Below are positions 1-34,489 of a stretch of 34,489 nt of DNA, piece by piece (within the stretch, counting starts at the first letter, position 1; each line of letters starts with the position of its first letter). This DNA is from Candidatus Micrarchaeia archaeon (GTDB lineage Archaea; Micrarchaeota; Micrarchaeia; Norongarragalinales; UBA8480), in contig JBAMLY010000008.1 of assembly GCA_039794045.1 (NCBI GenBank), positions 1-34,489 on the forward strand. Direction: 5' to 3'. The notes below the pieces were generated by a model. It had not been told where the DNA came from and did no database searches. It saw only the letters and a list, made by a program, of their open reading frames with translations. The translations under genes were made by a program, and so were the position numbers.

Positions 1-51
1 GCGTCACTAATTATTGAGCGCGGGGGTGCCAGAGCCTGGAAAATGGGCAGG

Positions 52-85
52 AAAACCTTGTCCAACGCGGACGGGGTTTTGCCAA
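52..85 (+). other. 34-nt BHB intron, tRNA-Leu position 30/31
   Basis: Helix GGCA/TGCC with bulges GG|A and AA|G; intron hairpin AAACCTTGTCC...GGACGGGGTTT. Confidence 0.88.
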
Positions 86-124
86 GCTTAGAACCCTGTG
101 GCTTAGCGCCTACGAGAGTTCAAA

Positions 125-170
125 ACCAGCTTCTTTTCTTTCAAAGAAAGAAAAAAGAGGTTGGGGAAAA
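125..170 (+). other. 46-nt T-loop intron (59/60), tRNA-Leu; intron family A
   Basis: Interrupts TTCAAA|T; hairpin CCAGCTTCTTTTCTTTC...GAAAGAAAAAAGAGGTTGG; boundary may shift 1 nt within the A-run. Confidence 0.85.
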
Positions 171-220
171 TCTCTCCCCCCGCACTACTTCCTCGTATTA
201 GAGCATTTTGCTTTCTCGCC

Positions 221-1177
221 TTAACCAATTATCGCGTTAAAAAGCAGTCCGATCAACACGATTGACACGAATAGTATTCCTACAAAGATTGCTATTAGTT
301 TTGGTTTGAGAACTTTCCTTAGTATAATCATTTCCGGAAACGACAAGGCGGTTACGCTCATCATGAACGCCAACGCAGTTCCGACCGCCATTCCCTTGCT
401 CATTAAAGCCTGGACTATTGGGATTGTTCCAGCCGCATTGGAGTACAAGGGTATTCCTATCATTACCGCAATTGGCACTGCAAGAATACTGCCTTTTCCC
501 GCGATTTCAGCCAGGAAACCAACTGGAACGTAACCGTGAATGAACGCGCCAACCCCGATTGCAATAAGGACGTATAAGCTTACCTTTTTCATTATGGTTT
601 TTACTTCGTTTTTCGCAAAACCAATTCTTTCCCTCAAAGTCATTTGCTTTTCCTTGACTTCTTTCGACCTGATTTCGTAAACAAAGTCCTCGACTTCCTT
701 CTCCAAATTCATTCTGCCGATCAAAATCCCTGCTACCACGGCGACAGAAAGACCGCTTAAAATATATAAACCAGTAATTTGCCAGCCAACCAGTCCAAGA
801 AGCAATGCTATTGCGACTTCGTTAACCATCGGGGAAGAAATCAAGAACGAGAACGTTATTCCCAGCGGAACCCCGGATTCGACGAACCCGATGAACAGCG
901 GAACAGCTGAACACGAACAGAAAGGAGTCGGCACCCCGAGCAAGGCCGCCAAAACGTTTCCCGCGCCTTCCTTCTTTCCGCCGAGCCACTTTTTAACTTT
1001 TTGGGGGGTTACGTACGTTCTTATCATGCCCACCAGGAAAACCATTACCAAAAGAAGAAGAAGCACTTTCACGGAGTCGTAGACGAAAAAATTCACTGCC
1101 TCCCCTAACTGGCTGCCTGGTTCCAGCTTCAACAACTGGAAAGCAACCCAAGCCCCTAAATCCTCAAGCAAACCCAA
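221..1177 (-). CDS. ArsP/DUF318-family permease
   Basis: 318-aa multi-TM protein with TPFCSCSAVP, FLISSPMVNE, GIPLYSNAAG and ALSFPEMIIL motifs; TTG start preceded by GAGGT. Confidence 0.88.
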   Translation of the reverse strand: MGLLEDLGAWVAFQLLKLEPGSQLGEAVNFFVYDSVKVLLLLLVMVFLVGMIRTYVTPQKVKKWLGGKKEGAGNVLAALLGVPTPFCSCSAVPLFIGFVESGVPLGITFSFLISSPMVNEVAIALLLGLVGWQITGLYILSGLSVAVVAGILIGRMNLEKEVEDFVYEIRSKEVKEKQMTLRERIGFAKNEVKTIMKKVSLYVLIAIGVGAFIHGYVPVGFLAEIAGKGSILAVPIAVMIGIPLYSNAAGTIPIVQALMSKGMAVGTALAFMMSVTALSFPEMIILRKVLKPKLIAIFVGILFVSIVLIGLLFNAIIG

Positions 1178-1181
1178 GATA

Positions 1182-1393
1182 TTACCTCAACCTAATGTTT
1201 TTTGAAACGTTGGATAAACCGGAAACATTAGGAGTAGGCAAAGCCGACGCGCTCACGCTGGCATTCGAGACGATAGGCGCGCCGGCGCCGGCATTGGTTG
1301 CGACACTCGCATCCGCGCCATCCCGGACGCCCCCAGACATCCAGCAAACAATAATGCTATCAGCGCAAACGCAACTAGAATACCTTTCTTCAT
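1182..1393 (-). pseudogene. Small lipoprotein gene, apparently frameshifted
   Basis: ATG at 1393 directly follows the upstream stop and gives MKKGILVAFALIALLFAGCLG (lipobox). That frame stops at 1253. A different frame continues with a Ser/Asn/Ala-rich tail (NAS, NVS sequons) to 1182. A G5 run (1330-1334) lies at the switch. Confidence 0.55.
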
Positions 1394-1624
1394 TTACTTC
1401 AGCCACTTCTTTATTTCTTCAACTTCGGCAACGCGCCCGTATGCCTTGACTTCGCCGTTCACTGCTATCGCGGGAGTAGACATTACGCCATAGCCAACAA
1501 TCTTTCCGATATCCGTCACCTTTACTATCTCGGCGTTTACTCCAAGCTCGGCAACCGCTTTCCCCGCATTTTCCTCAAGGGTTTTGCATTTCGGACATCC
1601 AGTTCCCAGAATCTCTATTTTCAT
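1394..1624 (-). CDS. Small redox-active disulfide protein (thioredoxin-like, MTH895 family)
   Basis: 76 aa, MKIEILGTGCPKC...GVMSTPAIAVNG; typical partner of ArsP-type permeases. Confidence 0.9.
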   Translation of the reverse strand: MKIEILGTGCPKCKTLEENAGKAVAELGVNAEIVKVTDIGKIVGYGVMSTPAIAVNGEVKAYGRVAEVEEIKKWLK

Positions 1625-1686
1625 TAAAGCACCGCCAACAATTTACACTAAAACATTTAAATATTTATGTGTATCAATAAGTCAAT

Positions 1687-1992
1687 ATGAAGGAAGCAGC
1701 AAGATTTTTGAAAATGCTCGGGGACGAAACCAGGCTCGAGATACTGGAGTTCCTGCTGGACGGCGAAAAATGCGTTTGCCAGATATTCCCCAAAGTCAAG
1801 CGCGCGCAGTCCACGGTATCTATACAGTTAGGCAAGCTGGAACAAGCGGGGCTGTTGAAGTCGAGGAGGGACGGCAAGAAAGTGTTTTACGGAATAAAAG
1901 ACTTCAGGGTCTGCGACGTGTTCAAGGCAATTGGTTTCGCAAAAGGAAAGGTGCTAAAGAGATCTTGCCACATAAACAGGGATAAAGAATGA
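1687..1992 (+). CDS. ArsR/SmtB-family transcriptional regulator
   Basis: LGDETRLEIL...GEKCVCQI...QSTVSIQL..L...GLL.SRRDGKKVFY winged HTH; divergent from the permease operon. Confidence 0.9.
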   Translation: MKEAARFLKMLGDETRLEILEFLLDGEKCVCQIFPKVKRAQSTVSIQLGKLEQAGLLKSRRDGKKVFYGIKDFRVCDVFKAIGFAKGKVLKRSCHINRDKE

Positions 1993-2315
1993 AAGCTTAT
2001 GACCTGAAAGAAAAAGTTGTTTTTTCCTCAGAAAAACCCGTCAAACGCCATTTTCTCAACGCCAAGGGATTTCACGCGGCGTTAATATGCCTTAAAAACG
2101 GCGTTGAGATAAAACCCCATCCCGAGGATTACGGCGTGCTATTAACCGTTCTTGAAGGAAAAGGAGTGTTCACGGATAGTAACGGGAGCGTTCTATTAGG
2201 AAAAAACCAAAGCATTTACATCAAAAAAGGAGAAGTAAGAAGCATAAAATCGGAAGAGGACTTGGTCGTGCTCGGCATTCAAGACAGAACAAACAGAGGT
2301 CATGGAAATGGCTGA
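1989..2315 (+). CDS. Cupin-fold protein
   Basis: 108 aa with IKPHPED..VLLTVLEGKGVF cupin pattern; ATGA overlap with the ArsR gene. Confidence 0.7.
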   Translation: MKAYDLKEKVVFSSEKPVKRHFLNAKGFHAALICLKNGVEIKPHPEDYGVLLTVLEGKGVFTDSNGSVLLGKNQSIYIKKGEVRSIKSEEDLVVLGIQDRTNRGHGNG

Positions 2316-2649
2316 CGACAAAAAGTTTTTAGAATGGCATGGGATTGCAAGGGACAGGATAAAATGGAATCCAACAGTAGACAAAAACAAATGCGTGGGT
2401 TGCGGGATGTGCGCGACGGGCTGCGGCAGAAACGTATATGATTGGGACTTCAAGGAAAATAAGCCAATTGTGGCCAGGCCGAACAACTGCCTGGTCGGGT
2501 GCGTCACGTGCTCGAACACCTGCCTTTGGGATGCGATAAGCTTTCCTGGCAAGGAGGTGCTCAGGAAAATAATCATTGATAACGGCGTAGTTGCAAGGGC
2601 GAAAAAGGAACTGGACAAGAAATTGGAGGAGACTGTGGAAAAATCATAG
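2302..2649 (+). CDS. 2x[4Fe-4S] ferredoxin-family protein
   Basis: CVGCGMCATGC and CLVGCVTCSNTC..DAISFP motifs; start may be at 2308. Confidence 0.85.
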   Translation: MEMADDKKFLEWHGIARDRIKWNPTVDKNKCVGCGMCATGCGRNVYDWDFKENKPIVARPNNCLVGCVTCSNTCLWDAISFPGKEVLRKIIIDNGVVARAKKELDKKLEETVEKS

Positions 2650-2658
2650 GTGGTTGAC

Positions 2659-3840: not shown

Positions 3841-3881
3841 TTGGTGATTTGCGATGAATAGACATATGGAGGTAGATAAAC

Positions 3882-4484: not shown

Positions 4485-4514
4485 GGAAAAACGGTGGCGG
4501 CATAGGATTGGCGG

Positions 4515-5282: not shown

Positions 5283-5309
5283 TGCTCGCGAATATGAAAA
5301 AGTGAAACA

Positions 5310-6205: not shown

Positions 6206-6247
6206 TGGTTTTAAAATAACTTCAACGCCAGTTTTAGTGGTGCGAAA

Positions 6248-6655
6248 ATGTTTTTGTTTGCGTCGCCTGAAGTGGAACTGCTTTTGAATGCCTTGATTGC
6301 AGCAGAAGTAATGGTGGTAATTTACTTGTGGTACCAGAAAGGCATTTGGCCTTTCGCGCAACAAGAAATGGAAGCGCAAGAGTTCTCTATTCAAGTCCCC
6401 CTTAAAACAGAGGATGAAAGGGAAGCCGTGGAAGACATTGTAGAATCCAAGCTAAAGGAAATAGAGGAGTTGAACGCAATTAAGGAAAACGCTGCAGAAG
6501 TGATCAAGCAAGCTAAACGCAAGTACATGAAAGGAGAAATAGGCGTGGACTCTTACCGCGCTGTAGTGAATGAAGCCGAAAAGGAAATCATTGAAGCTGA
6601 CGCGCGCCTCAACCTATTACAGGAATTTGGGTCGCAGAACAGGCGAAGGGTTTAA
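6248..6655 (+). CDS. Hypothetical protein (N-terminal TM, coiled-coil)
   Basis: 135-aa ORF with GGTG SD-like element and protein-like composition. Confidence 0.7.
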   Translation: MFLFASPEVELLLNALIAAEVMVVIYLWYQKGIWPFAQQEMEAQEFSIQVPLKTEDEREAVEDIVESKLKEIEELNAIKENAAEVIKQAKRKYMKGEIGVDSYRAVVNEAEKEIIEADARLNLLQEFGSQNRRRV

Positions 6656-6658
6656 ATA
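6644..6658 (+). promoter_or_regulatory. Probable rRNA operon promoter (BRE + TATA)
   Basis: CGAAGGG-TTTAAATA about 310 nt upstream of the 16S 5' end, followed by a structured leader. Confidence 0.55.
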
Positions 6659-7450
6659 CCTATTTTGAGATAAGTTGTGTTACACGCGACTGACTTCTCT
6701 TTGTGACGTCGCGTCGTTCTTGCCGCAACGCGTTTTACAGTCGTTTAGGGCATTCCAGCCTTTACAGTGCGCGCGCTTTGAGAAGCCTTTGCGGGTTTCT
6801 TGCAGTGCGCGGGCGTTGACGGCGTCGTGATAATCCGAGGAGACTTCAACAGGCGCTTTTGCGTCGATGACGTTCGTTTCGGGTTTGATGCAGAAGACCT
6901 TGGGAGCAAAAAAGCTGAGAGTTAGTTCTTGCGGCCCTCTACGGCCACGCGCTATCGCGCGTGAGCCTCACACCAGTCGATCCTGCTGGAGGGCACTGCT
7001 ATCGGATTGCGACTAAGACATGCAAGTTTTAAGACCGGGCTTCCGGTCTTGGCGTACGGCTGAGTAACACGTAGTCAACATACCCTAGAGATTCGAATAA
7101 CTTCGAGAAATTGAAGCGAATTCGTTATAGGCAAGGATTTCTGGAAGGAAGCCTTGCTGAAAAGGAGCCTGAATTGCAGGGAGTTCCGCTCTAGGATTGG
7201 ACTGCGTCTGATTAGGCTGTTGGCGGGGTAACGGCCCACCAAACCAATAATCAGTAGGGGCTATGGGAGTAGTAGCCTCCAGAAGGGCACTGAGACAAGG
7301 GCCCTAGCCCTATGGGGTGCAGCAGTTACGAAACTTCCGCAATGCGCGAAAGCGTGACGGGGGTAGTCCGAGTGGCATTCGAAAGAATGCCTTTTGGCCA
7401 GTCCGAATAACTGGCAGAATAAGTGGTGGGTAAAGCCTGTGCCAGCCGCC

Positions 7451-7482
7451 AGCGGCAACAACTCACGAGTTGTCGCCGGTAA
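7451..7482 (+). other. 32-nt BHB intron in 16S 530 loop (about E. coli 526/527)
   Basis: Splits GTGCCAGCCGCC|GCGGTAATAC; helix GCCG/CGGT, bulges CC|A and AA|G, hairpin GCGGCAAC...GTTGTCGC. Confidence 0.9.
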
Positions 7483-7653
7483 GCGGTAATACAGGTAGCA
7501 CGAGTGGTGTCCGCGAATATTGAGCCTAAAGCGCCCGTAGCCGGTTCGGCAAATTTCCTGTGAAATCTTCCAGCTTAACTGGGAGGCTTGCAGGAAACAC
7601 TACCGGGCTTGGGAGTGGGGGAGGTCAGGGGTACGTCAGGGGGAGCGGTTAAA

Positions 7654-7692
7654 TCACGCGCGTAGCGCGACTTGTTGCGCGCGTTGTAACAA
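7654..7692 (+). other. 39-nt BHB intron in 16S 690 loop (about 696/697)
   Basis: Splits GCGGTTAAA|TGCTTTAATCC; helix GTTA/TAAC, bulges AA|T and AA|T. Confidence 0.88.
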
Positions 7693-7774
7693 TGCTTTAA
7701 TCCTTGACGGACCACCAGTGGCGAAGGCGCCTGACCAAAACACGTCCGACGGTGAGGGACGAAGGCCAGGGGAG

Positions 7775-7806
<32 letters not shown>

Positions 7807-7888
7807 AGTAAATGATGCAGACTAGACGTTGCACTTGCTTCGAGCAAGTGCAGTGCCGTAGCGAAGGCGATTAGTCTGCCGCTTGGGG

Positions 7889-7931
<43 letters not shown>

Positions 7932-8073
7932 TACCACAAGCCGTGGATGCTGCGGTTCAATTGGATTCAACGCCGGGAAACTCACCAGGAAAGACGGCAG
8001 GATGAAGCTCAGGCTGAAGACCTTAGCCAACAAGCCGAGAAGTGTTGCATGGCCAGCGTCAGCTCGTGCCGTG

Positions 8074-8172
8074 AAAGAGCAGCTTCCTCGAATGAAGGAA
8101 AGCTTTCCAACCGCGTTAAACGCGCGGGCGTTGCTTTCAGACGAGAGTTGAATGGGAGCTGTTTTTCGGTAC
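8074..8172 (+). other. 99-nt BHB intron in 16S (about 1079/1080)
   Basis: Splits CAGCTCGTGCCGTG|AGGTGTCAGGTTAAGTCC; helix GCCG/CGGT, bulges TG|A and AC|A, long stem AAGAGCAGCTTCC/GGGAGCTGTTTTT. Confidence 0.9.
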
Positions 8173-8820
8173 AGGTGTCAGGTTAAGTCCTGCAACGAGC
8201 GAGATCCCCGTTCACAGTTGCCATCTTTGAAGTGATTCAAAGAGCACTCTGTGAAGACTGCTTGCGTTAAGCTAGAGGAAGGAGGGGGCGACGCTAGGTC
8301 AGTATGGCCCGAATTTCCTGGGCCACACGTGGCATACAATGGCGGAGACAATGGGTTCCGACGCCGAAAGGCGAAGGCAATCTCAGAAACTCCGCCTCAG
8401 TTCGGATTGGGCGCTGAAACTCGTGCCCATGAAGCTGGAATGGCTAGTAATCGCGTGTCATCATCGCGCGGTGAATATGTCCATGCTCCTTGCACACACC
8501 GCCCGTCAAGCCATCCAAGCGAGGCTTTAATGAGGCTCGGACTTAGGTTCGAGTCGAGCTAAAGCTTTGTGAGGAGGGTTAAGTCGTAACAAGGTAACCG
8601 TAGGGGAACCTGCGGTTAGATCACCTCCAATTGGTCGAAAGCGCGAACGCAGAAGTTCTGTTCTCGCGCGAAACTAGAACTAATTCGGAGAATTCCAGGA
8701 ATCAATTCCGCCTGGAAGCGCTAAAGCATCGAGCTTGCCTCGATGATTTGCAATTTCCTTGGTCTTCTGCAAAAAAACTTTTGTGGGCTCGTGGCGCAGT
8801 GGTAGCGCGCCTGCTTTGCA

Positions 8821-8903
8821 AGCAACCCTTTTCTTCGTCGCTTCGCCTTCGGGGTTCAGTTCCTCGAAAAGCGTTGACGGAAAAAGAGAATGGTTGCCGG
8901 GAA
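8821..8903 (+). other. 83-nt canonical intron of tRNA-Ala; intron family B
   Basis: BHB with helix TTTG/CGGG and closing stem GCAACC/GGTTGC; near-identical to the tRNA-Glu intron. Confidence 0.9.
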
Positions 8904-8925
8904 AGCAGGAGGTCGCGGGTTCAAA

Positions 8926-9004
8926 AGCCATGCCTCTTTTCTTTTCGTAGGAGAAAAGACGCTGGGCGTGGCGCAGAGAAAACGCCGCGCCTGACAGCGG
9001 AGTA
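8926..9004 (+). other. 79-nt T-loop intron (59/60) of tRNA-Ala
   Basis: Removal restores TTCAAAT; contains hairpin GCCATGCC...GGGCGTGGC; boundary +/-1 nt. Confidence 0.8.
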
Positions 9005-9326
9005 TCCCGTCGAGTCCATTTTTTCGTGCAGGGCAACGCATTCGATTGCGTGTCTTGCTAACGCAACCGTTTCTTTGGTTGCGCCGCTCGCGAGTAAGTC
9101 CCCTTGATTGAGAGGGGCTTTGTAGAGCGCAGTGCGGAACGACTGCCTCGGGCTTTCAAGCCAGGAGGCTTTGCTTGAAGTGAAGCGCGACAGTGTTTGC
9201 GTTGGAGCGTGGAACGACAAGCAAAAAAGTCGGGTATGAAGCTTTTACAGGAAAGGAGTCTAACGGAAGATCACGTGCATGGAAGCCGCGAAAGCGGTTG
9301 CCGTGTAATGGTCTTTTGGGAAAAAA

Positions 9327-12277
9327 GTGCTACTAGTTAGTGCCGTACAGTGGATGGTTGGGCTCGGAAAACGATGAAAGGCGTGGCAAGCTGCGAAAAG
9401 CCAAGGGTAGGAGCAGGCGTCCTTTGATCCTTGGATTCCTGAATTGCTCGGAGACGAGTGAAGACCGGCGGAATTGAAATATCTTAGTACGCCGAGGAAG
9501 AGAAACCAACCGGGATTCCGTGAGTAAGGCGACTGAAAGCGGAGTAGAGCAAACCGAATGCCTCTGCGCAAGCAGGGGACGAATGTGGTGTTTGGACCTC
9601 CTTTTAGCACCGGAAATGCATTGTCTGAAGTGAGCTGGAATGCTCCGTCTTAGAAAGTGAAAGCCTTGTAGGACTAGCGTTTTCGGGCGTGGAGAGTTCC
9701 AGAGTAAGGCAGCCTTGCATGGCTGCAAGAACGTGGGAGGATTAACTTCCAACTCTAAACATATTTCGAGACCGATAGCGTAAATGAGTACCGTGAGGGA
9801 AAACTGAAAAGCACCCCGACAGGGGAGTTAAAAGTGCCTGAAACTGTGCGGCTACAGTGAGACGTGGCGTGAAAGGAATGTAGCGCGCGAAAGCGCGCCA
9901 AACAGCGTTGCGTCGTACTTCTTGAAGCAAGGGCCAGGGAGTTCAAGGGAGTGGCGAGCATTAAGCAAAGCGAAAGCGATTCCGCGCAACCGCGCAAGCG
10001 GCGAGGCGGGGCGTCTTAACGGGCGCCGAGTCACTGTCTTGAGACCCGAAGCCGAAGCGATCTATGCGTGAGCAGGATGAAGCCGCTCTTCCGAGTGGTG
10101 GAGGTCCGCAACCGATTCTGGTCTAACCGACCGGGTGACTCACGTATAGGGATGAAAGTTCATTCGAGCTCGGCATTAGCGGGTTCCCTCCGAAGTGTCT
10201 CCCAGGACAGCCTCGCTGGAGGCAGACTCTAGGTAGAGCCACCGATTAGGGGGCATGGGGAGTAAAATCCTCACCTTCTCGTCGAACTCCGAAGCTAGAG
10301 TCGCCGTAGAAGGCGGGAGTTGGGATGTACGAGGTAAGCGCGTACTCCGTGAGGGGAAAGACCCCTACTGCGGTTAAGGCCCCAAAGAAGTGGCTAAGTG
10401 GAAAGTCAAGACGTCTTGGTTCTCAGACAGCTGGGAGGTAGGCTTAGAAGCAGCCATCCTTTAAACAACGCGTAACAGCGGACCAGTCAAGTTCTGGGGC
10501 GTCGCAAACTATCGGGCCTAAGCCACTCGCCGATACCGTGGAACTGCAGTTGAACTGCAGATTTGGTAGGAGGGTGTACTGACTGAGTGGAAGGAGGTTC
10601 GCGAGAACCTCTGGATCGGTTAGTAACAAATATCCTGGTGCTAGTAGCATCTATTCCAGGCGAGAATCCTGGACGCCGGAAGGGCAAGGGTTTCTTGGCA
10701 ACGCTAGAAACCAACTTTTCTTTTGAGAAAAGAAGAAAGAGAGAAGAGGGTTGGCGAGTCGGCCAAGAGTAAGTCGGTCCTAAGGCTAAACGTAACCGTG
10801 ATGCCGAAAGGGAAACACGTTAACAATCGTGTACCTCGTTGGGGCGCGCGGCAACGCAAGTTCAAGTCAGACGCCTGTGGATAAGCCGAGCGGCTGCGAA
10901 GCCGTTCAACAAAGATAGCGCGAGGAAGTCTCGTTGTGAGGAGCACTCGCACAAATTTGGAGTAGCCCGCAAGGGTTCGGCTGATTCCGTGGGCCCGTGA
11001 AAATGGCTTGGAAAGCTTTCAACGAGTCCGTACCAAGAACCAGTACAGGTGCCCCTAGCAGAGAAAGCTAAGGCGTGGCAGGAAAACCGAAGCAAGGGAA
11101 CTCGGCAAGTTAGTCCCGTAAGTTAGCAAGAAGGGATGCCTACACTTCTTCCAAGATTACATCAAGGAGGACTTGTAGGTCTCAGTAACAAGGGGACGTC
11201 GACTGTTTACCAAAAACACAGGTTTCAGCAAGGTGGAAACGCTGAGTACTGAAGCCGACGCCTGCTCACCAGCAGTATCTGAAGCTGGGGTTCAACTCAG
11301 TCAAGGACTGCTAAGGAGCGGGAGTAACTCTGACTCTCTTAAGGTAGCGTAGTACCTCGCCGCTTAATTGGCGGCTTGCATGAATGGCGTAACGAGCGTC
11401 CCACTGTCCCTGCTTTGGACCTGGCGAACCTACTACACGGTGAACATGCCGTGGACTCCGAGTGGGAAACGAAGACCCCATAGACCTTAACAACAGTCTG
11501 TAGTTGCGTCGCGGTTGGTGATGCAAAGCGTAAGCAGGAGCCGTTAAGTCCGCTCTTTCGGGGGCGGGATAGGCGAAAGTGTGACACTGCTCTTCTTCGA
11601 CTACGTCGCTTACCCTAAAGGGACAGCTGCAGATGGGTTGTTCGACTGGGGCGGTACGCCTTCGATAACGAAACAAAGGCGCCCAAAGCTCAACTCAAGA
11701 GCGTCAGAAACGCTTTGTAGAGGGTTAAACACAAATGTTGGGCTGACTGTGTCCTTAACAAAATGGGATGCAGACGCGAAAGCGGGGGTTAACGAACAAT
11801 AGTGTGCCTCTTGATGGGGCCCTATTCTGACAGACAAGGTACCTTGGGGGTAACAGGCTCGTCGCGTGCGAGAGTTCATATCGACCACGCGGTTTGGTAC
11901 ATCGCTATCGGCTCGGGACATCCTGGTGGTGCAGGAGCCACCAAGGGTTGGGTTGTTCATCCATTAAAGTCCCACGTTAGTTGGGTTCAAAACGTCGCGA
12001 GACAGTTTGGTGGCATCTACTCGGAGTGTTTGGCTGGCTGAGGGTAAGGTTTCCTAAGTACGAGAGGAACGGGAAATCGGCGCCTCTAGTTAAGCTGTTG
12101 TGTCAACGCAGGCAGCATAGCCACGCGCCAAGGGATAAGTCCTGAAAGCATCTCAAGGACGAAGCCCCTCCTAAAACGAGCCAGCTTAGGACGCCCGTAG
12201 CAGACGGGTTTGATAGGGCAGGAGTGTAAACCAAGAGCGCAAGCGATTGGCGAGCTAACTGCTACTAAAGTCCGCAC
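9327..12277 (+). rRNA. rrl: 23S rRNA (archaeal) with one intron
   Basis: GTGGATGG..GGCTCGG 5' region, AGTACCGTGAGGGAAA, GTPase centre GGCTTAGAAGCAGCCA, TAAGGTAGCG, PTC loop, sarcin-ricin loop AGTACGAGAGGAAC; ends approximate. Confidence 0.96.
10708..10758 (+). other. 51-nt BHB intron in 23S (about E. coli 1328/1329); resembles family A
   Basis: Splits GGCAACGCTAG|TCGGCCAAGAG; helix CGCT/GGCG, bulges AG|A and AG|T, closing stem AACC/GGTT. Confidence 0.85.
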
Positions 12278-12523
12278 CCAAAAAACACTGCCATCGCTCC
12301 CCAGAGCGCGCGAGCGCGTTGAAGGGAAGAGAACTGAAAATAGTGTTTTTTTGGGGTAACACTTTTTCACCCAAAAAGCAACACCATTTAGCACGTCAAG
12401 AAATGACTCCGTTCCTTTCCAGTAAAAGCGTGCAAACGCGCGCTGCGCTCGCAGTTTCTTCAATGCCGAGCGGCAAGCATATTTTAAAAACGAAGCGCCC
12501 AAAAATTATTTGGGTGGCGCTCA

Positions 12524-20757: not shown

Positions 20758-20815
20758 TCAAAACACCTTGAAGTAAGAGTGCCGCGGGGGAGAATTGAAC
20801 CCCCGACCTCCAGAT

Positions 20816-20855
20816 GGCTCGAGCGACTTTAAAGCGACGAGCGCTTTTTTTCGCT
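20816..20855 (-). other. 40-nt canonical (37/38) intron of tRNA-Met
   Basis: Removal restores the CTCATAA loop. Confidence 0.82.
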
Positions 20856-20862
20856 TATGAGT

Positions 20863-20946
20863 TTCGCGCCAGCTTTTCCGTGGAGCTTTTTCGGGCAGCG
20901 AAGCAAAGGCTTGCAGCCGAGCGAAGCCGCGACGAAAAAAGGCTGA
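20863..20946 (-). other. 84-nt intron at 30/31 of tRNA-Met; diverged family B
   Basis: Removal restores the CCAGA/TCTGG stem; relaxed BHB; shares CTTTT..TCGTCGC and CGAAAA.GC...ACGGAAAAG blocks with the Ala/Glu introns. Confidence 0.8.
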
Positions 20947-21034
20947 CTGGCGCTCTAACCAACTGAGCTACCGCGGCAAATTATTTTGTTTTTGGGCGAG
21001 AATCAATAAAAAGCGTTGCTAATTAACTTGTTTC

Positions 21035-22778: not shown

Positions 22779-22936
22779 GCTCCAGTCGTCTAGCTCGGTC
22801 AAGGATACCGGCCTTTCAAGCAACCCTTTTCTTCGTCGCTCCGCCTTCGGGGCTCCGTTCCTCGAAAAGCGTTGACGGAAAGGAAAAGGCGCTGCGCAGA
22901 AAGCCGGCGACCCGGGTTCAAATCCCGGTTGGAGCA
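22779..22936 (+). tRNA. tRNA-Glu(TTC) with canonical intron
   Basis: GCTCCAG/TTGGAGC acceptor; CCGGC-CTTTCA|A-GCCGG; CCGGG-TTCAAAT-CCCGG. Confidence 0.93.
22819..22901 (+). other. 83-nt canonical intron of tRNA-Glu; intron family B
   Basis: 60 of the first 63 nt identical to the tRNA-Ala intron (manual alignment). Confidence 0.9.
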
Positions 22937-25855: not shown

Positions 25856-25886
25856 CAGCGCGAGACAACTTTTTCTCTTGTTTGTC

Positions 25887-28152: not shown

Positions 28153-28154
28153 GT

Positions 28155-29279: not shown

Positions 29280-29381
29280 TAAGTGCTTGTTCTTGCTCAA
29301 GAATACCACTCCCAACCAAAAAAGTTGTAAAGTCTTTTTAATAGTAAGACAAACAAATATTTTGTGGTGCAAGGTGGTTGC

Positions 29382-30269: not shown

Positions 30270-30369
30270 GTTAAAGCAATAATACTACTGCTTTTTTAGT
30301 GCCTCACTTGACACCTTAAAGCAGCGCAAAACATTTTCCTACAATTTAGTTTACAGGAGGTAGATTTCC

Positions 30370-32019
30370 ATGCAGCAACAAATGGCGGGAAACCCGCAAA
30401 TAGTAATGCTTCCAGAAGGAAGCAGCCGCGTCCTAGGCAGGGACGCTCAACGCACAAACATAGCCGTGGCTTACGCTGTCGCTCAGGCAGTAAAAAGCAC
30501 GCTCGGCCCCCGCGGCATGGACAAAATGCTGGTAAGCGAGCTCGGCGACATCGTAATCACGAACGACGGCGCGACAATCCTTGAAGAAATGCACATAGAG
30601 CACCCTGCAGGCAAGATGATGGTAGAAATCGCTAAAACTCAAGACCAAGAAGTAGGCGACGGAACTACCACCTCAGTAGTGCTCGCAGGAGAACTCTTGA
30701 AGAACGCAATGGAACTCCTCGACCAAGACATTCACGCTTCCACCATAATAAGCGGCTACAAGCTCGCTGCAAGCAAGGCGCTCCAAATCCTGAACGAAAT
30801 AGGCATGGAAGTCAAGATAAGCGACACGAAAACCCTTGAAAAAATAGCGAGCATCAGCATGGCAAGCAAGACCGTGGGAGCAGGCGCTGGAAAAGACCAC
30901 TTGGCTTCCCTAGTAGTAAAAGCAGTGACTCAAGTCGCAGAAAAACGCGACGGCAAAAACTTCATCGACAAAGACTACATCAAAATAGAGAAAAAACAAG
31001 GCGGCGACATCTTCCAAACTACAGTCATAAACGGCGTCCTCATAGACAAGGAAGTCGTCCACCCAGGAATGCCAAAAAAAGTTGAAAACGCGAAAATCGC
31101 TCTCTTGGACGCTGCCCTCGAAATAGAGAAAACCGAAACCGACGCTCGCATCAACATCAACTCGCCAGAGCAAATGACTGCCTTCCTAGAACAAGAAGAG
31201 AAAATGCTGAAGGAAATGGCGGAGAAAGTCGTGAAAAGCGGAGCGAACGTCTTGTTCTGCCAGAAAGGGATAGACGACGTCGCGCAACACTACCTCGCAA
31301 AACAAGGAGTTGTTGCTTGCCGACGCGTCAAGAAAAGCGACATGGAGAAACTCGCACGCGCGACCGGCGCGCGCATCGTCACCACTCTAGACGACTTGAC
31401 TCCCAAAGACTTGGGCTTTGCAGGCACTGTTGAAGAACGAAAGATCGCGGGAGAGCAAATGACTTTCGTTGAAAAATGCAAGGAACCAAAAGCAGTAACC
31501 ATCTTCATTCGCGGAAGCACGAACCACGTAGTAGACGAAGCAGAACGCGCGGTAAATGACGCCCTAGGCGCAGTCGCGAGCGCCATAGAAGAAGGCAAGT
31601 ACACCGCGGGCGGCGGCTCAATCGAAATGGAGGTAGCAACACGCTTGAAAAAGTACGCAGTTGAAGTCGGCGGACGCGAGCAACTAGCAATACAATCCTT
31701 CGCAGAAGCACTTGAAGTCATTCCACGCACTCTAACCGAGTCATCAGGCATGGACCCAATCGACACGCTAGTAGAACTGCGCGCCAAACACGAGAAAAAA
31801 GACGGCATCGTCTACGGCGTAGACGTAATCAAAGGCAAAGTGGCAGACATGCTAGCGCTAAACGTAATAGAGCCACTGAAAGTGAAAAAGCAAGCCATCC
31901 AAAGCGCTTCCGAAGTAACGCAAATGATTCTGCGCATAGACGACATAATAGCTTCGAAAGGAAAATCTTCAACCCCGACCGACAAAGGCGGCTCCAGCGA
32001 CATGGGCGGCATGGATTAA
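30370..32019 (+). CDS. Thermosome subunit (group II chaperonin)
   Basis: [43 protein letters not shown]. Confidence 0.97.
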
Positions 32020-32071
32020 GCACTGCAACAAGCCAGGACTTTCCAGAGCGAAAGCCTGAATGCCTTCCCCC

Positions 32072-33004
32072 CTACCTTTTCTTTTTTTCTTTTCTTGCAA
32101 GCAAGTACTTCCAAGCGCTCAGCGCAGCCACCGCGCCTTCCCCGGCAGCAACAATTATTTGCTTTGCCGGAGAGTCAGTGCAGTCCCCAGCAGCGAAAAC
32201 CCCTGGAACGCTGGCAGCCTGCCGCCGGTCAACAATTATTTCGTTGAACTCGTTGAGTTTCAGGAAACCCCTCGCAAAACCTGTGCTTGGCTCGTAACCA
32301 ACCTCGACGAAGACGCCGTCCACAGCAAAAAACTTTTTCCTGCCATTCACTAAAACTTCCATGCCAGAAACAAGCTTGCCTCCAACAATCCTCGCAACAA
32401 GAGCCGAGTAAAAAACGCTTATCTTCCTCGAAGCCAAAACTTTTTCCTTCATTACCTCGTCTCCCTGCAACTCAGAGTTTATCGTGAACAACAGCGTTTT
32501 CCTCGCCACCTTCTCCAATTGCAGCACTGCATCCAAAGCAGAGTTGCCGCCGCCAACCACGGCGGCTACGCGGTCCCTCATCAAAGGAGCATCGCAGACC
32601 GCGCAGTAAAAAACTCCTTTGCCTGCAAACTCTTTCTCGCCTGGCACGCCCAACTGCCGCGGCCTAGCACCAGAAGCGATTACCAGCGAACGCGCCCTAA
32701 ACAAACCATTACGCGTTCTAACCGTAAAACACTCATCCGCGTCACGCGACAAAGAAACGACTTCTCCTTCCTCGTACTCCACGCCAGGGAAAATAGAGAG
32801 GTGGTCGAAAAACTTTTTCGCAAGCTCAGCCCCAGAAATGACTTGATAAGAAGGATAGTTAGCAACCTCTCCGCTAAAGACGGCCTGACCTCCCACCCTC
32901 TCGCTTAAAACAAGGACGCTCATCTTCTTTCGGGCAGCGTAAATCGCTGCAGTAACGCCTGCAGGCCCAGCCCCAACCACTATCAAGTCACGCAAACGCG
33001 GCAA
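32072..33004 (-). CDS. trxB: Thioredoxin reductase family FAD/NAD(P)H oxidoreductase
   Basis: GAGPAG, YCAVCDA, GGGNSA, GVFAAGD, KQ...AAGEG. Confidence 0.9.
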   Translation of the reverse strand: MPRLRDLIVVGAGPAGVTAAIYAARKKMSVLVLSERVGGQAVFSGEVANYPSYQVISGAELAKKFFDHLSIFPGVEYEEGEVVSLSRDADECFTVRTRNGLFRARSLVIASGARPRQLGVPGEKEFAGKGVFYCAVCDAPLMRDRVAAVVGGGNSALDAVLQLEKVARKTLLFTINSELQGDEVMKEKVLASRKISVFYSALVARIVGGKLVSGMEVLVNGRKKFFAVDGVFVEVGYEPSTGFARGFLKLNEFNEIIVDRRQAASVPGVFAAGDCTDSPAKQIIVAAGEGAVAALSAWKYLLARKEKKKR

Positions 33005-33011
33005 GCGCCAG

Positions 33012-33254
33012 TCACTCTTTCAAACCCAAAGCTTTCGCAATAGCTGGTTTGTCGAAACCCACGATTATTTTGCCGTCAACATCTATCACGGGAACGCCCA
33101 TTTGCCCGCTCTTCTCAATCATTTCCTGCGCGCGCCTCTCGTCAACACCAACATCGTAGGAAACAAAATTCACCTTGTTTTTCCTCAAGTAATCTACAGC
33201 CATATGACAATAAGGACAAGTTTGAGTCATGTAAACAATTACTTTATTCGCCAC
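33012..33254 (-). CDS. Glutaredoxin-like (NrdH/YruB) redoxin
   Basis: CPYC, SGQMGVPVIDVDG..IVGFD. Confidence 0.92.
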   Translation of the reverse strand: MANKVIVYMTQTCPYCHMAVDYLRKNKVNFVSYDVGVDERRAQEMIEKSGQMGVPVIDVDGKIIVGFDKPAIAKALGLKE

Positions 33255-33326
33255 TTTAATCCCCTCCTCTTAAAACACGATTCAGCCGACACCAGCAATA
33301 AAATAATTTAGCGAGAATTTTAAAGC

Positions 33327-34085
33327 CTACTGGTTAAACCGCTCAGGATCACGCAAGAAACCGTAAAAACAAGGGTGCTCCAAAAAAGAAGCATACAAAT
33401 TAGACGAATGAAGCAAAGCATGGTACTTTAATTGCGTTGCCTTGACGCGCTTCAACGGCGGAAGGCGGCGGTAGTGCTTGTTAGGAATAAAACTGCCGTC
33501 CTCCAAACAATAATAAGCCGCGCCACGCTTTCGCTTAAACAACTCGTATTCCGCGCTGCACTGCATTGCCTGCAAGTTAGCTAGGACAAGCGCGCAACTG
33601 CCGGCATTAATTGAAACATGCCCCCATCCCGGTGGAACCAATACTTTGTCGCCGGGCCGCGCTTCCACCACCAAAACGTCGGTCACCTCCCCCGCTTGAG
33701 GCGCGGCATGCCGCTGCAACAAAAACAAGGCCTCACCGAAAAGAACCTCGTAAACTTCCGGGTACTCCAAACCATCAACCGCAACAGAGTGATAGTGCCC
33801 GAAAGTCTTGTTGCGCTCCGGCTTCACGAAAACACTATCCAAAACCGTGACATCGTACTCCAAGCCAGCCAAACCAAAAACGTGGGCGTCCTCTCGCCTG
33901 CAAACATTGCGCCAAACCCTGTAAAGCACGCGGTCACTTTCCCCGCTCTCAACATCAAGCAAGACAGAACGCAAGTCCCGCGCAGTACGCTGCAAGACAG
34001 GCGGCAAAACCCTGCCACCAAAACGAGGCACTCCACTCAACGCGTCAAACTCGACGCGCAAAGGCGCGCAACCCAGCAAAACCAT
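33327..34085 (-). CDS. Cupin-type (archaeal) glucose-6-phosphate isomerase
   Basis: YDVTVL, KTFGHYH, YPEVYEVLFGEA, VPPGWGHVSIN, GAAYY; start at 34085 avoids overlap with the tRNA. Confidence 0.85.
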   Translation of the reverse strand: MVLLGCAPLRVEFDALSGVPRFGGRVLPPVLQRTARDLRSVLLDVESGESDRVLYRVWRNVCRREDAHVFGLAGLEYDVTVLDSVFVKPERNKTFGHYHSVAVDGLEYPEVYEVLFGEALFLLQRHAAPQAGEVTDVLVVEARPGDKVLVPPGWGHVSINAGSCALVLANLQAMQCSAEYELFKRKRGAAYYCLEDGSFIPNKHYRRLPPLKRVKATQLKYHALLHSSNLYASFLEHPCFYGFLRDPERFNQ

Positions 34086-34153
34086 GAAAAAACCAAGGAA
34101 AACGCCACTTAAAATACGTTCACGTAAAAAAAAGCAAGGCGGGCCCACTGGGA

Positions 34154-34201
34154 CTTTCCTCACCAACCTCCTTTTCTTTCTTTCAAAGAAAGGAAGCTGG
34201 T
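34154..34201 (-). other. 48-nt T-loop intron of tRNA-Arg; family A
   Basis: 28 of the first 30 nt identical to the tRNA-Leu T-loop intron; shared GAGGTTGG. Confidence 0.88.
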
Positions 34202-34223
34202 TTTGAACCCAGGACCTTCTGCT

Positions 34224-34251
34224 TTCCCCGCAAAACCGTTAACGGCTCGCT
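34224..34251 (-). other. 28-nt canonical intron of tRNA-Arg
   Basis: BHB helix CTTC/GGGG; hairpin GCCGTTAACGGT. Confidence 0.85.
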
Positions 34252-34270
34252 TAGAAGGCAGCTGCGCTAT

Positions 34271-34308
34271 TTGCCCAACCCTCTCCCTCGCTTGAAGGAA
34301 AAAGGCCG
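34271..34308 (-). other. 38-nt D-loop intron (19/20) of tRNA-Arg
   Basis: Helix GTCT/GGGC, bulges GG|C and AA|A; removal restores A20, the Arg identity element. Confidence 0.85.
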
Positions 34309-34440
34309 CCAGACTGCGCTATGGGCCCACTCAACAAAATTATTTGTCGAAACAACGTTATTTAGGGTTTCGCCTTGCCACGCAAAAAAAACAAGAAAAC
34401 ACACTGTTTTATACCCGCACGCGAAAAACCTTACTTGCAA

Positions 34441-34489
34441 GCGGGGAGGTGGGCCAACCAAAGCGCACCTCCTTTTCTTTGAAAAAGAA
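34441..34489 (-). tRNA. Probable 3' end of another intron-containing tRNA, truncated by the window
   Basis: Reverse complement ...AAAGAAAAGGAGGT (identical to the Arg T-loop intron) followed by CCCACCTCCCCGC, which resembles T-stem plus acceptor 3' strand; identity not determinable. Confidence 0.4.

What the first reader, a model, noticed from the sequence alone, without database searches (positions are those of the whole stretch)
20..34489. Genome-wide spread of short ORF-less BHB introns across tRNA and rRNA genes
Seen: all five complete tRNAs are interrupted (Leu 2, Ala 2, Met 2, Glu 1, Arg 3) and both rRNAs are too (16S 3, 23S 1), giving 14 introns of 28-99 nt. Each restores a conserved motif when removed, and most show strict or relaxed BHB junctions. 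None can encode a homing endonuclease. Known: archaeal EndA cleaves BHB motifs, and multi-intron tRNAs and tRNA intron transposition are described in Thermoproteales and ARMAN archaea. Inference: here a pool of non-autonomous mini-introns, falling into at least two sequence families, appears to have colonised both tRNA and rRNA. A plausible route is reverse splicing or gene conversion under a broad-specificity EndA.
Basis: partly seen in the sequence, partly recalled or inferred. Interest (0 to 1): 0.9.

Follow-up and report, generated by a model that had tools for sequence, protein, structure and literature searches.

The report
Mini-introns riddling tRNA and rRNA genes
In this tiny hot-spring archaeon (Micrarchaeota) all five complete tRNA genes and both large rRNA genes in the window are broken by short protein-spliced introns, a gene layout known from its relative ARMAN-2, and some of the introns are built around a repeated hairpin module that also lies outside introns.

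Summary
The window holds 5 complete tRNA genes with 10 introns (Leu 2, Ala 2, Met 2, Glu 1, Arg 3). The 16S gene has 3 inserts and the 23S gene 1, all 28-99 nt. Removing them gives five tRNAs that ARAGORN accepts, and restores rRNA continuity with intron-less relatives. Thirteen of 14 junctions fit a strict or relaxed bulge-helix-bulge motif.

The genome encodes a full-length epsilon2-type splicing endonuclease. It matches ARMAN-2 EndA (PDB 4fz2) at E=7e-127, with the catalytic triad and specificity-loop lysine conserved. It also encodes RtcB. No reverse transcriptase and no LAGLIDADG gene were found.

Genome-wide, about 31 of 42 tRNA loci are interrupted, 20 of them at T-loop position 59/60.

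Two sequence families are real: Ala-I1/Glu-I1, and Leu-I2/Arg-I3 with three more Leu genes. Sharing between tRNA and rRNA is weak inside this genome (23S intron against the T-loop family, E=0.047). It is clear across the order: the same hairpin-plus-box module sits in 23S introns of three relatives, in tRNA flanks and in tandem arrays. It is multi-copy in only 4 of 68 genomes.

No RNA data exist, so splicing and the route of spread are inferred. This is a new member of a known kind, with a useful lead on how such introns arrive. Earlier notes of this scan report similar modules on other DPANN DNA.

The parts
20..184 (+). tRNA-Leu(TAG). Exons 20-51, 86-124, 171-184. Introns 52-85 (34 nt, 30/31) and 125-170 (46 nt, T-loop 59/60, family B).
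   Evidence: ARAGORN 117.1 after splicing. BHB H4/h1/h'10 and H3/h5/h'10.
6970..8629 (+). 16S rRNA gene with three mini-introns.
   Evidence: Rfam RF01959, 1366.8 bits. Inserts seen in the model alignment and against 19 relatives.
7451..7482 (+). 16S intron 1 (32 nt). It splits the conserved GCCGCC|GCGGTAA motif.
   Evidence: BHB H4/h0/h'8. A homologue with compensatory stem changes lies at the same site in G018. 17 of 19 relatives have no insert there.
7654..7692 (+). 16S intron 2 (39 nt). The boundary can slide by up to 3 nt.
   Evidence: BHB H4/h0/h'2, the weakest of the rRNA junctions. 4 of 19 relatives have unrelated short inserts at the same site.
8074..8172 (+). 16S intron 3 (99 nt).
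   Evidence: BHB H4/h1/h'10. Homologous 91-nt intron at the same site in the closest relative G001 (72 of 103 aligned columns identical).
8785..9018 (+). tRNA-Ala(TGC) in the 16S-23S spacer. Introns 8821-8903 (83 nt, 37/38, family A) and 8926-9004 (79 nt, 59/60).
   Evidence: ARAGORN 121.8; G3:U70 read from the sequence. BHB strict H4/h5/h'6 and H3/h5/h'2.
9332..12287 (+). 23S rRNA gene with one mini-intron.
   Evidence: Rfam RF02540, 2379.4 bits. Alignment with 9 full-length relatives.
10708..10758 (+). 23S intron (51 nt) with a pyrimidine/purine hairpin. It resembles the T-loop intron family B.
   Evidence: H4/h0/h'4. nhmmer with the family B profile gives E=0.047 over profile positions 1-41 of 47-48. 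4 of 22 relatives have an insert at the same site.
20780..20977 (-). tRNA-Met(CAT), elongator type. Introns 20863-20946 (84 nt, 30/31) and 20815-20854 (40 nt, 37/38 or 38/39).
   Evidence: ARAGORN 120.9. BHB H3/h3/h'1 and H3/h1/h'1. The second junction gains h=5 only after the first intron is removed (by eye).
22779..22936 (+). tRNA-Glu(TTC). Intron 22819-22901 (83 nt, 37/38, family A).
   Evidence: ARAGORN 116.0. BHB H3/h5/h'3. 5 same-family relatives carry the two exons adjacent, that is without an intron.
34140..34328 (-). tRNA-Arg(TCT). Introns 34271-34308 (38 nt, D-loop), 34224-34251 (28 nt, 37/38) and 34154-34201 (48 nt, 59/60, family B).
   Evidence: ARAGORN 118.7 with either D-loop register. 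BHB H4/h1/h'12, H4/h4/h'5 and H3/h5/h'0.
34441..34489 (+). Truncated sixth tRNA: a Pro-like 5' exon (34441-34459) followed by an intron-like pyrimidine/purine hairpin that runs off the contig.
   Evidence: Read by eye. The same 19 nt open the intron-less tRNA-Pro genes at the ends of contigs C11 and C14.

Best explanation
The 14 inserts are archaeal bulge-helix-bulge introns. The genes are transcribed with them. The homodimeric epsilon2 splicing endonuclease, encoded on contig C11, cuts both 3-nt bulges of each strict or relaxed BHB. RtcB, encoded on contig C10, then joins the exons. The tRNAs and rRNAs become functional only after this step.

The introns do not have a single origin. Some are old and site-bound: 16S-I3 is shared with the sister genus, and the Leu isoacceptors share a T-loop intron. 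Others carry repeated modules. One is a pyrimidine/purine hairpin closed by an AACC/GGTT helix (family B). The other is a hairpin with conserved ends followed by the box AAAGCG-N2-5-ACGGAAA (family A). These modules recur in non-orthologous tRNAs, in rRNA introns, and in tRNA leaders, trailers and spacers. They are multi-copy only in scattered genomes of the order.

The unit that spreads therefore looks like the module rather than the whole intron. It persists wherever the broad-specificity endonuclease or end-trimming removes it from a stable-RNA transcript.

Shown: the gene anatomy, the BHB geometry, the enzymes and the distribution. Inferred: actual splicing, the order of splicing, and the way the modules move.
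For: ANATOMY
- 5 of 5 spliced tRNAs are accepted by ARAGORN, against 0 of 5 unspliced.
- The rRNA inserts are clean gaps in most relatives.
- BHB: 11 of 14 junctions are good as first scored, and 13 of 14 after the Arg-I1 register shift and the Met-I2 reading.

ENZYMES
- A 385-aa EndA aligns with PDB 4fz2 over residues 12-385 at E=7.1e-127.
- From that alignment and the residue numbers in PMC3488258 (passages read), Y234/H249/K280 match Y236/H251/K282. The loop GTYKAKKH matches the ARMAN-2 specificity loop, with K160 at K161.
- RtcB scores 579 bits.
- ARMAN-2 epsilon2 EndA cuts a relaxed 59/60 T-loop intron in vitro (PMC3239211, passages read).

FAMILIES
- Ala-I1/Glu-I1: 95% over 63 nt. Leu-I2/Arg-I3: 93% over 30 nt.
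- The family B profile hits 5 T-loop introns at E<=1.6e-10 and the 23S intron at E=0.047.
- 20 of about 42 tRNA loci carry a 59/60 intron.

MODULE
- Box counts are G000 8, G013 10, G022 22 and G038 12, against reversed-pattern controls of 0, 1, 0 and 0. The other 64 genomes have <=4 each, with controls of 0-4.
- All 8 of 8 G000 copies lie in tRNA introns or within about 110 nt of a tRNA gene.
- Copies lie inside 23S inserts in G007, G013 and G022.
- Closing stems of >=6 bp: 9 of 20 elements with their own arms, against 57 of 380 mismatched arm pairs.
- Of 31 pyrimidine/purine hairpins in the genome, 11 lie in the 0.9% of bases occupied by tRNA loci and 1 in the 23S intron.
Against: - No RNA of this organism is available. 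The RNA runs laid hold only conserved rRNA pieces of other organisms. Splicing, ligation and intron fate are therefore not observed.
- 16S-I2 has only a weak motif. Met-I2 needs prior removal of Met-I1.
- The three 16S introns of this genome show no similarity to any tRNA intron and no pyrimidine/purine hairpin (0 of 3).
- The 23S/T-loop match is borderline and of low complexity.
- 19 of the 31 pyrimidine/purine hairpins lie outside RNA genes. Several sit directly after genes like two-way T-run terminators. Part of the 'family' signal may thus be convergence on a common hairpin type.
- No transposase, reverse transcriptase or homing endonuclease was found in G000 to move anything.
- The genome-wide tRNA census rests on my own anchor-and-ARAGORN script. 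Anticodon assignment was ambiguous for several loci, and three loci are doubtful.
Confidence: 0.8

Rival explanations
1. Ordinary, vertically inherited BHB introns with nothing mobile. Similar introns in different tRNAs come from tRNA gene duplication and short-patch gene conversion between similar arms. The recurring hairpins are convergent solutions for the intron helix of the BHB.
For: - 16S-I3 is homologous at the same site in the closest relative G001.
- The T-loop family is mainly in four Leu isoacceptors, and relatives of other families have similar Leu T-loop introns.
- The Ala/Glu identity stops 20 nt before the 3' splice site, as a conversion tract would.
- Two neighbouring C15 tRNAs share an identical 43-nt T-loop intron.
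- No mobility enzyme was found.
Against: - The box module is multi-copy in only 4 of 68 genomes, from three different families. It is at background level in G000's own family: 11 genomes with 0-2 matches against controls of 0-3.
- It occurs outside introns, in tandem arrays and in 23S introns.
- 16S-I1 has its only homologue in a different family (G018), while closer relatives lack it.
Confidence: 0.3
2. The rRNA mini-introns are decayed remnants of homing-endonuclease introns (the usual homing cycle) and are unrelated to the tRNA introns.
For: - Relatives carry long 16S introns whose ORFs match LAGLIDADG domains. 3 of 4 tested are above the Pfam cut-off and 1 is below.
- Short hairpin introns beside endonuclease-bearing ones are described in Thermoproteales 16S genes (PMC4496867, passages read).
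Against: - In the 19 relatives aligned, the endonuclease-bearing introns sit at other 16S sites (alignment-core positions 748, 875, 1470). At G000's three sites only short inserts of 30-91 nt occur.
- The 23S intron and several relatives' mini-introns carry the same hairpin or box modules as tRNA introns.
Confidence: 0.2
3. The rRNA inserts are not spliced. They stay as expansion segments, or they are cut out without rejoining and leave fragmented rRNA.
For: There is no RNA evidence either way. 16S-I2 has a weak BHB.
Against: - All four rRNA inserts have a 4/4 central helix with two 3-nt bulges.
- They interrupt stretches that are invariant across the relatives aligned.
- EndA and RtcB are both present.
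Confidence: 0.05
4. The inserts are assembly or binning artefacts.
For: Contigs of this assembly break in repeated tRNA and hairpin sequences. For example, the last 55 nt of C6 are identical to the first 55 nt of C8.
Against: - Independently assembled contigs of the DNA run carry the same inserts with 0-1 differences.
- Relatives have inserts at the same sites, two of them homologous.
- The junctions fold as BHB motifs.
Confidence: 0.01

Closest known systems
Disrupted tRNA genes and epsilon2 EndA of Candidatus Micrarchaeum acidiphilum ARMAN-2 (Fujishima et al. 2011, PMC3239211; Hirata et al. 2012, PMC3488258; passages read)
   Same: - Same phylum. The relatives found with the EndA query are titled Micrarchaeota or Micrarchaeia.
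- Same three-unit EndA with the catalytic triad and the specificity-loop lysine.
- tRNAs interrupted at many positions, including 59/60 in the T-loop. ARMAN-2 EndA cuts a 59/60 intron in vitro.
   Different: - Here about three quarters of the tRNA loci are interrupted, and 20 carry a 59/60 intron.
- The passages I read describe no short ORF-less rRNA introns and no repeated intron modules.
tRNA intron transposition in Thermoproteales (Fujishima et al. 2010; recalled, and cited as reference 29 in a passage of PMC3239211 read; the paper itself was not read)
   Same: Highly similar introns at the same position in tRNAs of different identity: Ala/Glu at 37/38, and Leu/Arg at 59/60.
   Different: - A different phylum and a different endonuclease type.
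- The shared part is a core module, not the whole intron.
- The module also occurs in rRNA introns, in tRNA flanks and in tandem arrays.
Short (<50 nt) hairpin-forming BHB introns in 16S rRNA genes of Thermoproteales (Jay and Inskeep 2015, PMC4496867; passages read)
   Same: ORF-less mini-introns that keep a BHB motif, at recurrent 16S sites, with patchy distribution.
   Different: - A different phylum.
- Whether the sites are the same was not tested. I did not map the sites to E. coli numbering with a tool.
- Here a 23S mini-intron and relatives' mini-introns share modules with tRNA introns.
16S rRNA insertions reported in Micrarchaeota (Golyshina et al. 2017, PMC5498576; Sakai et al. 2022, PMC8784108; passages read)
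   Same: Introns or insertions in 16S genes of ARMAN-2, Mia14 and ARM-1 show that rRNA interruption is known in the phylum.
   Different: The ARM-1 and ARMAN-2 insertions are long (522 bp in ARM-1) and hold an ORF, and their splicing was called uncertain. Here the inserts are 32-99 nt, have no ORF, and have clear BHB junctions.

Membership tests
Archaeal BHB (endonuclease-spliced) introns | The insert interrupts a conserved stable-RNA gene, and removing it restores the gene. | tested here: met
   5 of 5 tRNAs are accepted by ARAGORN only after removal. 4 of 4 rRNA inserts are gaps in most relatives.
Archaeal BHB (endonuclease-spliced) introns | A strict or relaxed bulge-helix-bulge motif at the two splice sites. 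| tested here: met
   11 of 14 junctions have H>=3 plus a flanking helix of >=3 bp, and 7 of 14 have H=4. Arg-I1 meets the motif after a 1-nt register shift. Met-I2 meets it only after Met-I1 is removed (by eye). 16S-I2 is weak.
Archaeal BHB (endonuclease-spliced) introns | A splicing endonuclease and an RNA ligase are encoded. | tested here: met
   EndA on C11. RtcB on C10, 579 bits.
Archaeal BHB (endonuclease-spliced) introns | Excision and exon ligation are seen in RNA. | not testable with these tools
   Only the source DNA run holds this sequence. The RNA runs hold conserved pieces of other organisms.
epsilon2-type EndA | A single polypeptide with the three-unit architecture. | tested here: met
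   Full-length alignment to 4fz2, residues 12-385 against 14-387, E=7.1e-127. Pfam finds N-terminal, catalytic and second catalytic-like stretches.
epsilon2-type EndA | Catalytic Tyr/His/Lys, and the ARMAN-2 specific loop with its Lys. | tested here: met
   Y234, H249, K280 and the loop GTYKAKKH (K160) align with Y236, H251, K282 and GTYKVSEH (K161). Counted by me on the alignment, using residue numbers from PMC3488258.
Transposed tRNA intron families (Thermoproteales type) | Near-identical introns at the same position in non-orthologous tRNAs. | tested here: met
   Ala-I1/Glu-I1: 95% over 63 nt. Leu-I2/Arg-I3: 93% over 30 nt.
Transposed tRNA intron families (Thermoproteales type) | The similarity spans the whole intron. 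| tested here: not met
   For Ala/Glu the last 20 of 83 nt are unrelated.
Homing-endonuclease rRNA introns | The intron encodes a LAGLIDADG endonuclease. | tested here: not met
   The inserts are at most 99 nt. There is no LAGLIDADG match above the cut-off in G000. Relatives' long introns do encode them.
Self-splicing group I / group II introns | Ribozyme core. | tested here: not met
   No Rfam intron family matches in the window at the gathering threshold or at E<=10. The inserts are too short.
IS200/IS605-derived miniature elements | Ends shared with a TnpA-bearing element in the same genome. | tested here: inconclusive
   TnpA matches: G022 has 5, G013 has 1, and G000, G038 and G007 have none. 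No module end was seen at the borders of the 6 loci fetched.

The most novel reading that the evidence does not exclude
The core of many of these introns is a small non-autonomous mobile RNA/DNA module: a hairpin with fixed ends plus the AAAGCG-N2-5-ACGGAAA box, closed by an AACC/GGTT helix. It invades transcription units of stable RNAs, namely tRNA D-, anticodon- and T-loops, rRNA, and tRNA leaders, trailers and spacers. It survives there because the broad-specificity epsilon2 endonuclease or end-trimming removes it. It expands in bursts in scattered Micrarchaeota lineages. That would be a concrete, traceable vehicle for the gain of BHB introns.
Probability: 0.35. Interest if true: 0.75.

Novelty: new member of a known kind. 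Interest (0 to 1): 0.5.

Why it matters
Three practical points follow.

1. Standard finders miss these genes. ARAGORN finds 0 of 5 tRNAs in the window, and Rfam finds 1 of 5 above threshold. tRNA complements and completeness of such genomes are therefore under-called. Introns inside primer-binding stretches of 16S may also hide these organisms from amplicon surveys.

2. The genome is a compact test bed for the substrate range of the epsilon2 endonuclease. It offers 14 junctions in one 34-kb contig. They range from strict to barely recognisable, and they include rRNA sites and a case where one intron must go before the next can fold.

3. How BHB introns arrive is still open. A 2026 preprint on Asgard tRNA introns says so in its abstract (10.64898/2026.10.13.758758, abstract read). 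A module that is found in tRNA introns, in rRNA introns and free, and that is multi-copy in only 4 of 68 related genomes, gives a handle for tracing gains.

Tried and rejected
- RNA evidence. The one search for runs found only the probable source DNA run with the full stretch. The RNA runs X3 and X4 hold conserved rRNA pieces at 90-99% likeness. Their joints that skip 7651-7691 or 10701-10762 can come from relatives that lack the inserts. They say nothing about splicing here.
- Arg exons in relatives. The search with the Arg gene found only T-loop intron look-alikes, so the D-loop register could not be settled by comparison.
- Consensus structure of the module. RNAalifold on a MAFFT alignment of 16 elements predicted no pairs. 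I used an own-arm against cross-arm stem count instead.
- The box as a promoter. The upstream regions of the 16S gene, the RNase P RNA and three tRNAs show A/T-rich TATA-like boxes instead (by eye). Rejected.
- The box as a K-turn or C/D-box guide. I found no tandem G-A pairs and no C/D boxes by eye. No tool test was run.
- IS200/IS605 link. TnpA is present in two of the four module-rich genomes, but the element borders show no module ends. Left open.
- Rfam has no family for any intron.
- ARAGORN's own intron mode mis-assigns multi-intron genes. It called Met as Gly and, in my T-loop-spliced inputs, Leu and Ala as Ser and Arg as Val. I did not rely on it.
- My automatic choice of anticodon by ARAGORN score plus BHB score was ambiguous at several loci outside the window. 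Genome-wide isotype labels are therefore provisional.

Full report
WHAT THE WINDOW IS

The window is the whole of contig C8 of a 655-kb, 16-contig genome that is 92% complete. It carries a 16S - tRNA-Ala - 23S operon and an RNase P RNA. ARAGORN in default mode finds no tRNA in it. Rfam finds one tRNA above threshold and one below.

With the genome's EndA as query, 200 loci in public genomes encode relatives. The 80 kept loci are almost all titled Candidatus Micrarchaeota, Micrarchaeia or Norongarragalinales. The only sequencing run that holds the stretch is labelled a hot-spring metagenome.

CHECKING THE OBSERVATION: tRNA GENES

I read five tRNA genes by eye and fixed the exon coordinates by script. 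After removal of 10 inserts, ARAGORN accepts all five:

| tRNA | ARAGORN score |
|---|---|
| Leu-TAG | 117.1 |
| Ala-TGC | 121.8 |
| Met-CAT | 120.9 |
| Glu-TTC | 116.0 |
| Arg-TCT | 118.7 |

The positions are 30/31 (Leu, Met), 37/38 (Ala, Glu, Arg, and Met in one of two equivalent registers), the D-loop (Arg) and 59/60 in the T-loop (Leu, Ala, Arg).

CHECKING THE OBSERVATION: rRNA GENES

I fetched the rRNA genes of 40 relatives and aligned them.

- Against 19 full-length 16S genes, G000 has extra blocks of 32, 39 and 99 nt.
- Against 9 full-length 23S genes, it has one extra block of 51 nt.
- Each block interrupts sequence that is otherwise continuous and conserved.
- 17, 15 and 16 of the 19 relatives have nothing at the three 16S sites.
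- 18 of 22 relatives have nothing at the 23S site.

The total is 14 inserts of 28-99 nt, as claimed.

BHB GEOMETRY

I scored each junction for a 4-bp central helix (H) flanked by two 3-nt bulges, an exon helix (h) and an intron helix (h'). For comparison I scored 5000 random same-length site pairs per intron.

- Seven of 14 junctions have H=4/4.
- Eleven of 14 have H>=3 with a flanking helix of at least 3 bp.
- Nine of 14 lie in the top 2.5% of the controls.
- Strict motifs: Ala-I1 (4/5/6) and Arg-I2 (4/4/5).
- All four rRNA inserts have H=4/4.
- The D-loop intron of Arg looked motif-less (2/0/0). Moving its 3' boundary by one base gives 4/1/12 with the same ARAGORN score, so it is probably 38 nt long.
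- Met-I2 scores poorly in the primary transcript. Its exon helix is the anticodon stem, which Met-I1 splits. After removal of Met-I1 it would have five exon pairs (my reading). This predicts ordered splicing.
- 16S-I2 (4/0/2) is the weakest junction.

ARTEFACT CHECK

Contigs assembled independently from the probable source run cover 6900-7797, 7777-10454 and 10425-11382 with 0, 1 and 0 differences. These ranges contain all four rRNA inserts and tRNA-Ala. This is the same sample, so it excludes an assembler or binning artefact but not more.

THE ENZYMES

- One ORF on C11 holds two endonuclease-type domains. Read from an internal Met it is 385 aa.
- It aligns end to end with PDB 4fz2 at E=7.1e-127. 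That entry is the epsilon2 enzyme of ARMAN-2 (PMC3488258, passages read).
- Counting along that alignment, the catalytic Tyr/His/Lys and the lysine of the ARMAN-2 specific loop are all kept. That loop confers cleavage of relaxed motifs.
- RtcB is present.
- No reverse transcriptase, no LAGLIDADG gene above the cut-off and no Y1 transposase were found. The genome is 92% complete.

GENOME-WIDE PICTURE

I wrote an anchor search (acceptor stem plus T-arm, allowing a T-loop insert). I then removed candidate inserts filtered by BHB score and kept solutions that ARAGORN accepted.

- It recovers all five window genes.
- Together with one extra ARAGORN call (tRNA-Cys) it gives about 42 tRNA loci. Three of them are doubtful.
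- 11 loci are uninterrupted.
- 20 loci carry an intron exactly at 59/60, with H 3-4 and the 5-bp T-stem as exon helix.
- Isotype labels outside the window are provisional, because several loci had near-equal alternative solutions.

SEQUENCE FAMILIES

- Family A. Ala-I1 and Glu-I1 are 95% identical over their first 63 nt and unrelated over the last 20.
- Family B. The T-loop introns of Leu-TAG and Arg-TCT match each other and those of three further Leu genes on other contigs.
- A profile of these five finds them at E<=1.6e-10. It finds the 23S intron over nearly its whole length at E=0.047. That is suggestive only, because the sequence is a low-complexity pyrimidine/purine hairpin.
- The three 16S introns match no tRNA intron.

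So within this genome the claim that one pool colonised both tRNA and rRNA rests on a single borderline match.

RELATIVES

Intron presence is patchy.

- tRNA-Glu has its two exons adjacent, that is no intron, in five genomes of the same family. Others have inserts of other lengths.
- tRNA-Leu of the closest relative G001 lacks intron 1.
- 16S-I3 has a clear homologue at the same site in G001, whose 16S exons are 89.6% identical to G000. 72 of 103 aligned intron columns are identical. This fits vertical descent.
- 16S-I1 has its only homologue in G018, a different family with 83.6% exon identity. The hairpin stem shows compensatory changes, and closer relatives lack the intron.
- Relatives also have classical long 16S introns with LAGLIDADG ORFs. 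These lie at other sites than G000's three.

THE MODULE

The conserved part of family A ends in a box that I searched as AAAGCG-N2-5-ACGGAAA.

- In G000 it occurs 8 times. All copies lie inside tRNA introns or within about 110 nt of a tRNA gene. The flanking copies are upstream of two Thr genes, between Tyr and Asp, and just after His.
- Across 68 genomes of the order it is multi-copy only in G000 (8), G013 (10), G022 (22) and G038 (12). The reversed-pattern controls are 0, 1, 0 and 0. Everywhere else there are at most 4 matches, with controls of 0-4. That includes the 11 other genomes of G000's own family.
- The four rich genomes belong to three families.
- Three copies fall inside 23S inserts. 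One is G007, at the very site of G000's 23S intron. One is G013, between two 23S match pieces. One is G022, likewise.
- By eye, other copies sit in D-loop, anticodon-loop and T-loop contexts, directly before or after tRNA-Ala in the rRNA spacer, and in tandem arrays of 3-4 units.
- My strict anchor test flagged only 4 of 44 copies as inside and 4 of 44 as near a tRNA-like frame. The context tally therefore still needs proper annotation.
- The elements share fixed ends, with a 5' end reading ACCCTTT followed by pyrimidines, and a variable hairpin between them. Own-arm closing stems of >=6 bp occur in 9 of 20 elements, against 57 of 380 mismatched arm pairs.
- Pyrimidine/purine hairpins of the family B kind number 31 in G000. 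Eleven lie in tRNA loci, which make up 0.9% of the genome, and one lies in the 23S intron. Nineteen lie elsewhere, several directly after genes where they look like two-way T-run terminators.
- Such hairpins also occur in 7 of 19 short 16S inserts of relatives, and in 0 of 3 in G000.

HOW IT MOST LIKELY WORKS

Shown:
- the gene anatomy;
- the BHB geometry;
- a complete epsilon2 EndA and RtcB;
- the family structure;
- the patchy distribution of introns and modules.

Inferred:
- EndA cuts all 14 junctions and RtcB rejoins the exons;
- Met-I1 precedes Met-I2;
- the repeated modules, rather than whole introns, are what spreads;
- they persist in stable-RNA transcription units because they are removed there at the RNA level.

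The route is open. Gene conversion fits the sharp end of the Ala/Glu identity and the identical T-loop introns of two neighbouring genes. Reverse splicing lacks a reverse transcriptase here. A DNA transposon origin found no support in a quick look.

COMPARISON WITH WHAT IS KNOWN

- Heavily interrupted tRNA genes, 59/60 introns and the epsilon2 enzyme are described for ARMAN-2 (PMC3239211, PMC3488258).
- Similar introns in different tRNAs are described as transposition in Thermoproteales. I recall this paper; it is cited in PMC3239211 and I did not read it.
- Short hairpin BHB introns in 16S genes are described in Thermoproteales (PMC4496867).
- 16S insertions are noted in Micrarchaeota (PMC5498576, PMC8784108).
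- My searches for DPANN or Micrarchaeota rRNA mini-introns, or for modules shared between tRNA and rRNA introns, listed no paper that describes them. The library is incomplete, and I did not read supplements.
- Earlier notes of this scan report the same kind of shared hairpin core in tRNA and 16S introns, and after gene ends, in other DPANN genomes. They also report intron copies in this genome.

VERDICT

The finding is a new, unusually dense member of a known kind. The module is a lead worth a proper census.

Noticed in passing
G038:C123:18645-18810 (L115/L264); G022:C23:5612-5711 (L104/L250): Tandem arrays of the hairpin-plus-box module outside any recognisable tRNA. G038 has four 50-nt units and G022 has three box copies spaced 42 nt apart. 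Their function is unknown. The G022 array lies in a short open frame that may be spurious.
   Followed up: partly
G000 contig C10:8452-8752 (outside the window): The intact, intron-less tRNA-Thr(CGT) at 8621-8692 is flanked by duplicates of its own ends. Its leader plus first 15 nt are repeated about 170 nt upstream and followed by an intron-like, box-bearing spacer. Its last 16 nt are repeated 44 nt downstream, after a family-B-like hairpin. This looks like a footprint of intron loss or gain by partial replacement. tRNA-Thr(GGT) on C12 has a similar 3' repeat.
   Followed up: no
window 1-55 and contig ends generally: The first 55 nt of the window equal the last 55 nt of contig C6. Several contigs (C2, C6, C8, C10-flank, C12, C15) end in tRNA pieces or pyrimidine/purine hairpins. 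These repeats are what fragments the assembly.
   Followed up: partly
window 34441-34489 (+): A sixth, truncated tRNA. Its Pro-like 5' exon is identical to the start of the two intron-less tRNA-Pro genes at the ends of C11 and C14. Here it is followed by an intron-like hairpin that runs off the contig.
   Followed up: no
L031:3193-3738, L038:846-1448, L040:891-1451, L025:3541-3852 (relatives' 16S genes): Long 16S introns of relatives (620-1002 nt) encode LAGLIDADG-type homing endonucleases. 3 of 4 are above the Pfam cut-off and 1 is a weak remnant. They lie at sites other than G000's mini-intron sites.
   Followed up: yes
G000 contig C10:5669-6976 and 7183-7449: The RtcB ligase gene lies about 200 nt from a long tRNA-like locus. 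That locus is multiply interrupted, and my pipeline could not resolve it.
   Followed up: no
window 6651-6660 and 6812-6826: The only TATA-like box upstream of the 16S gene lies about 310 nt before it, which implies a long leader. A GCGTTGACGG string like the module's box occurs inside that leader (by eye).
   Followed up: no
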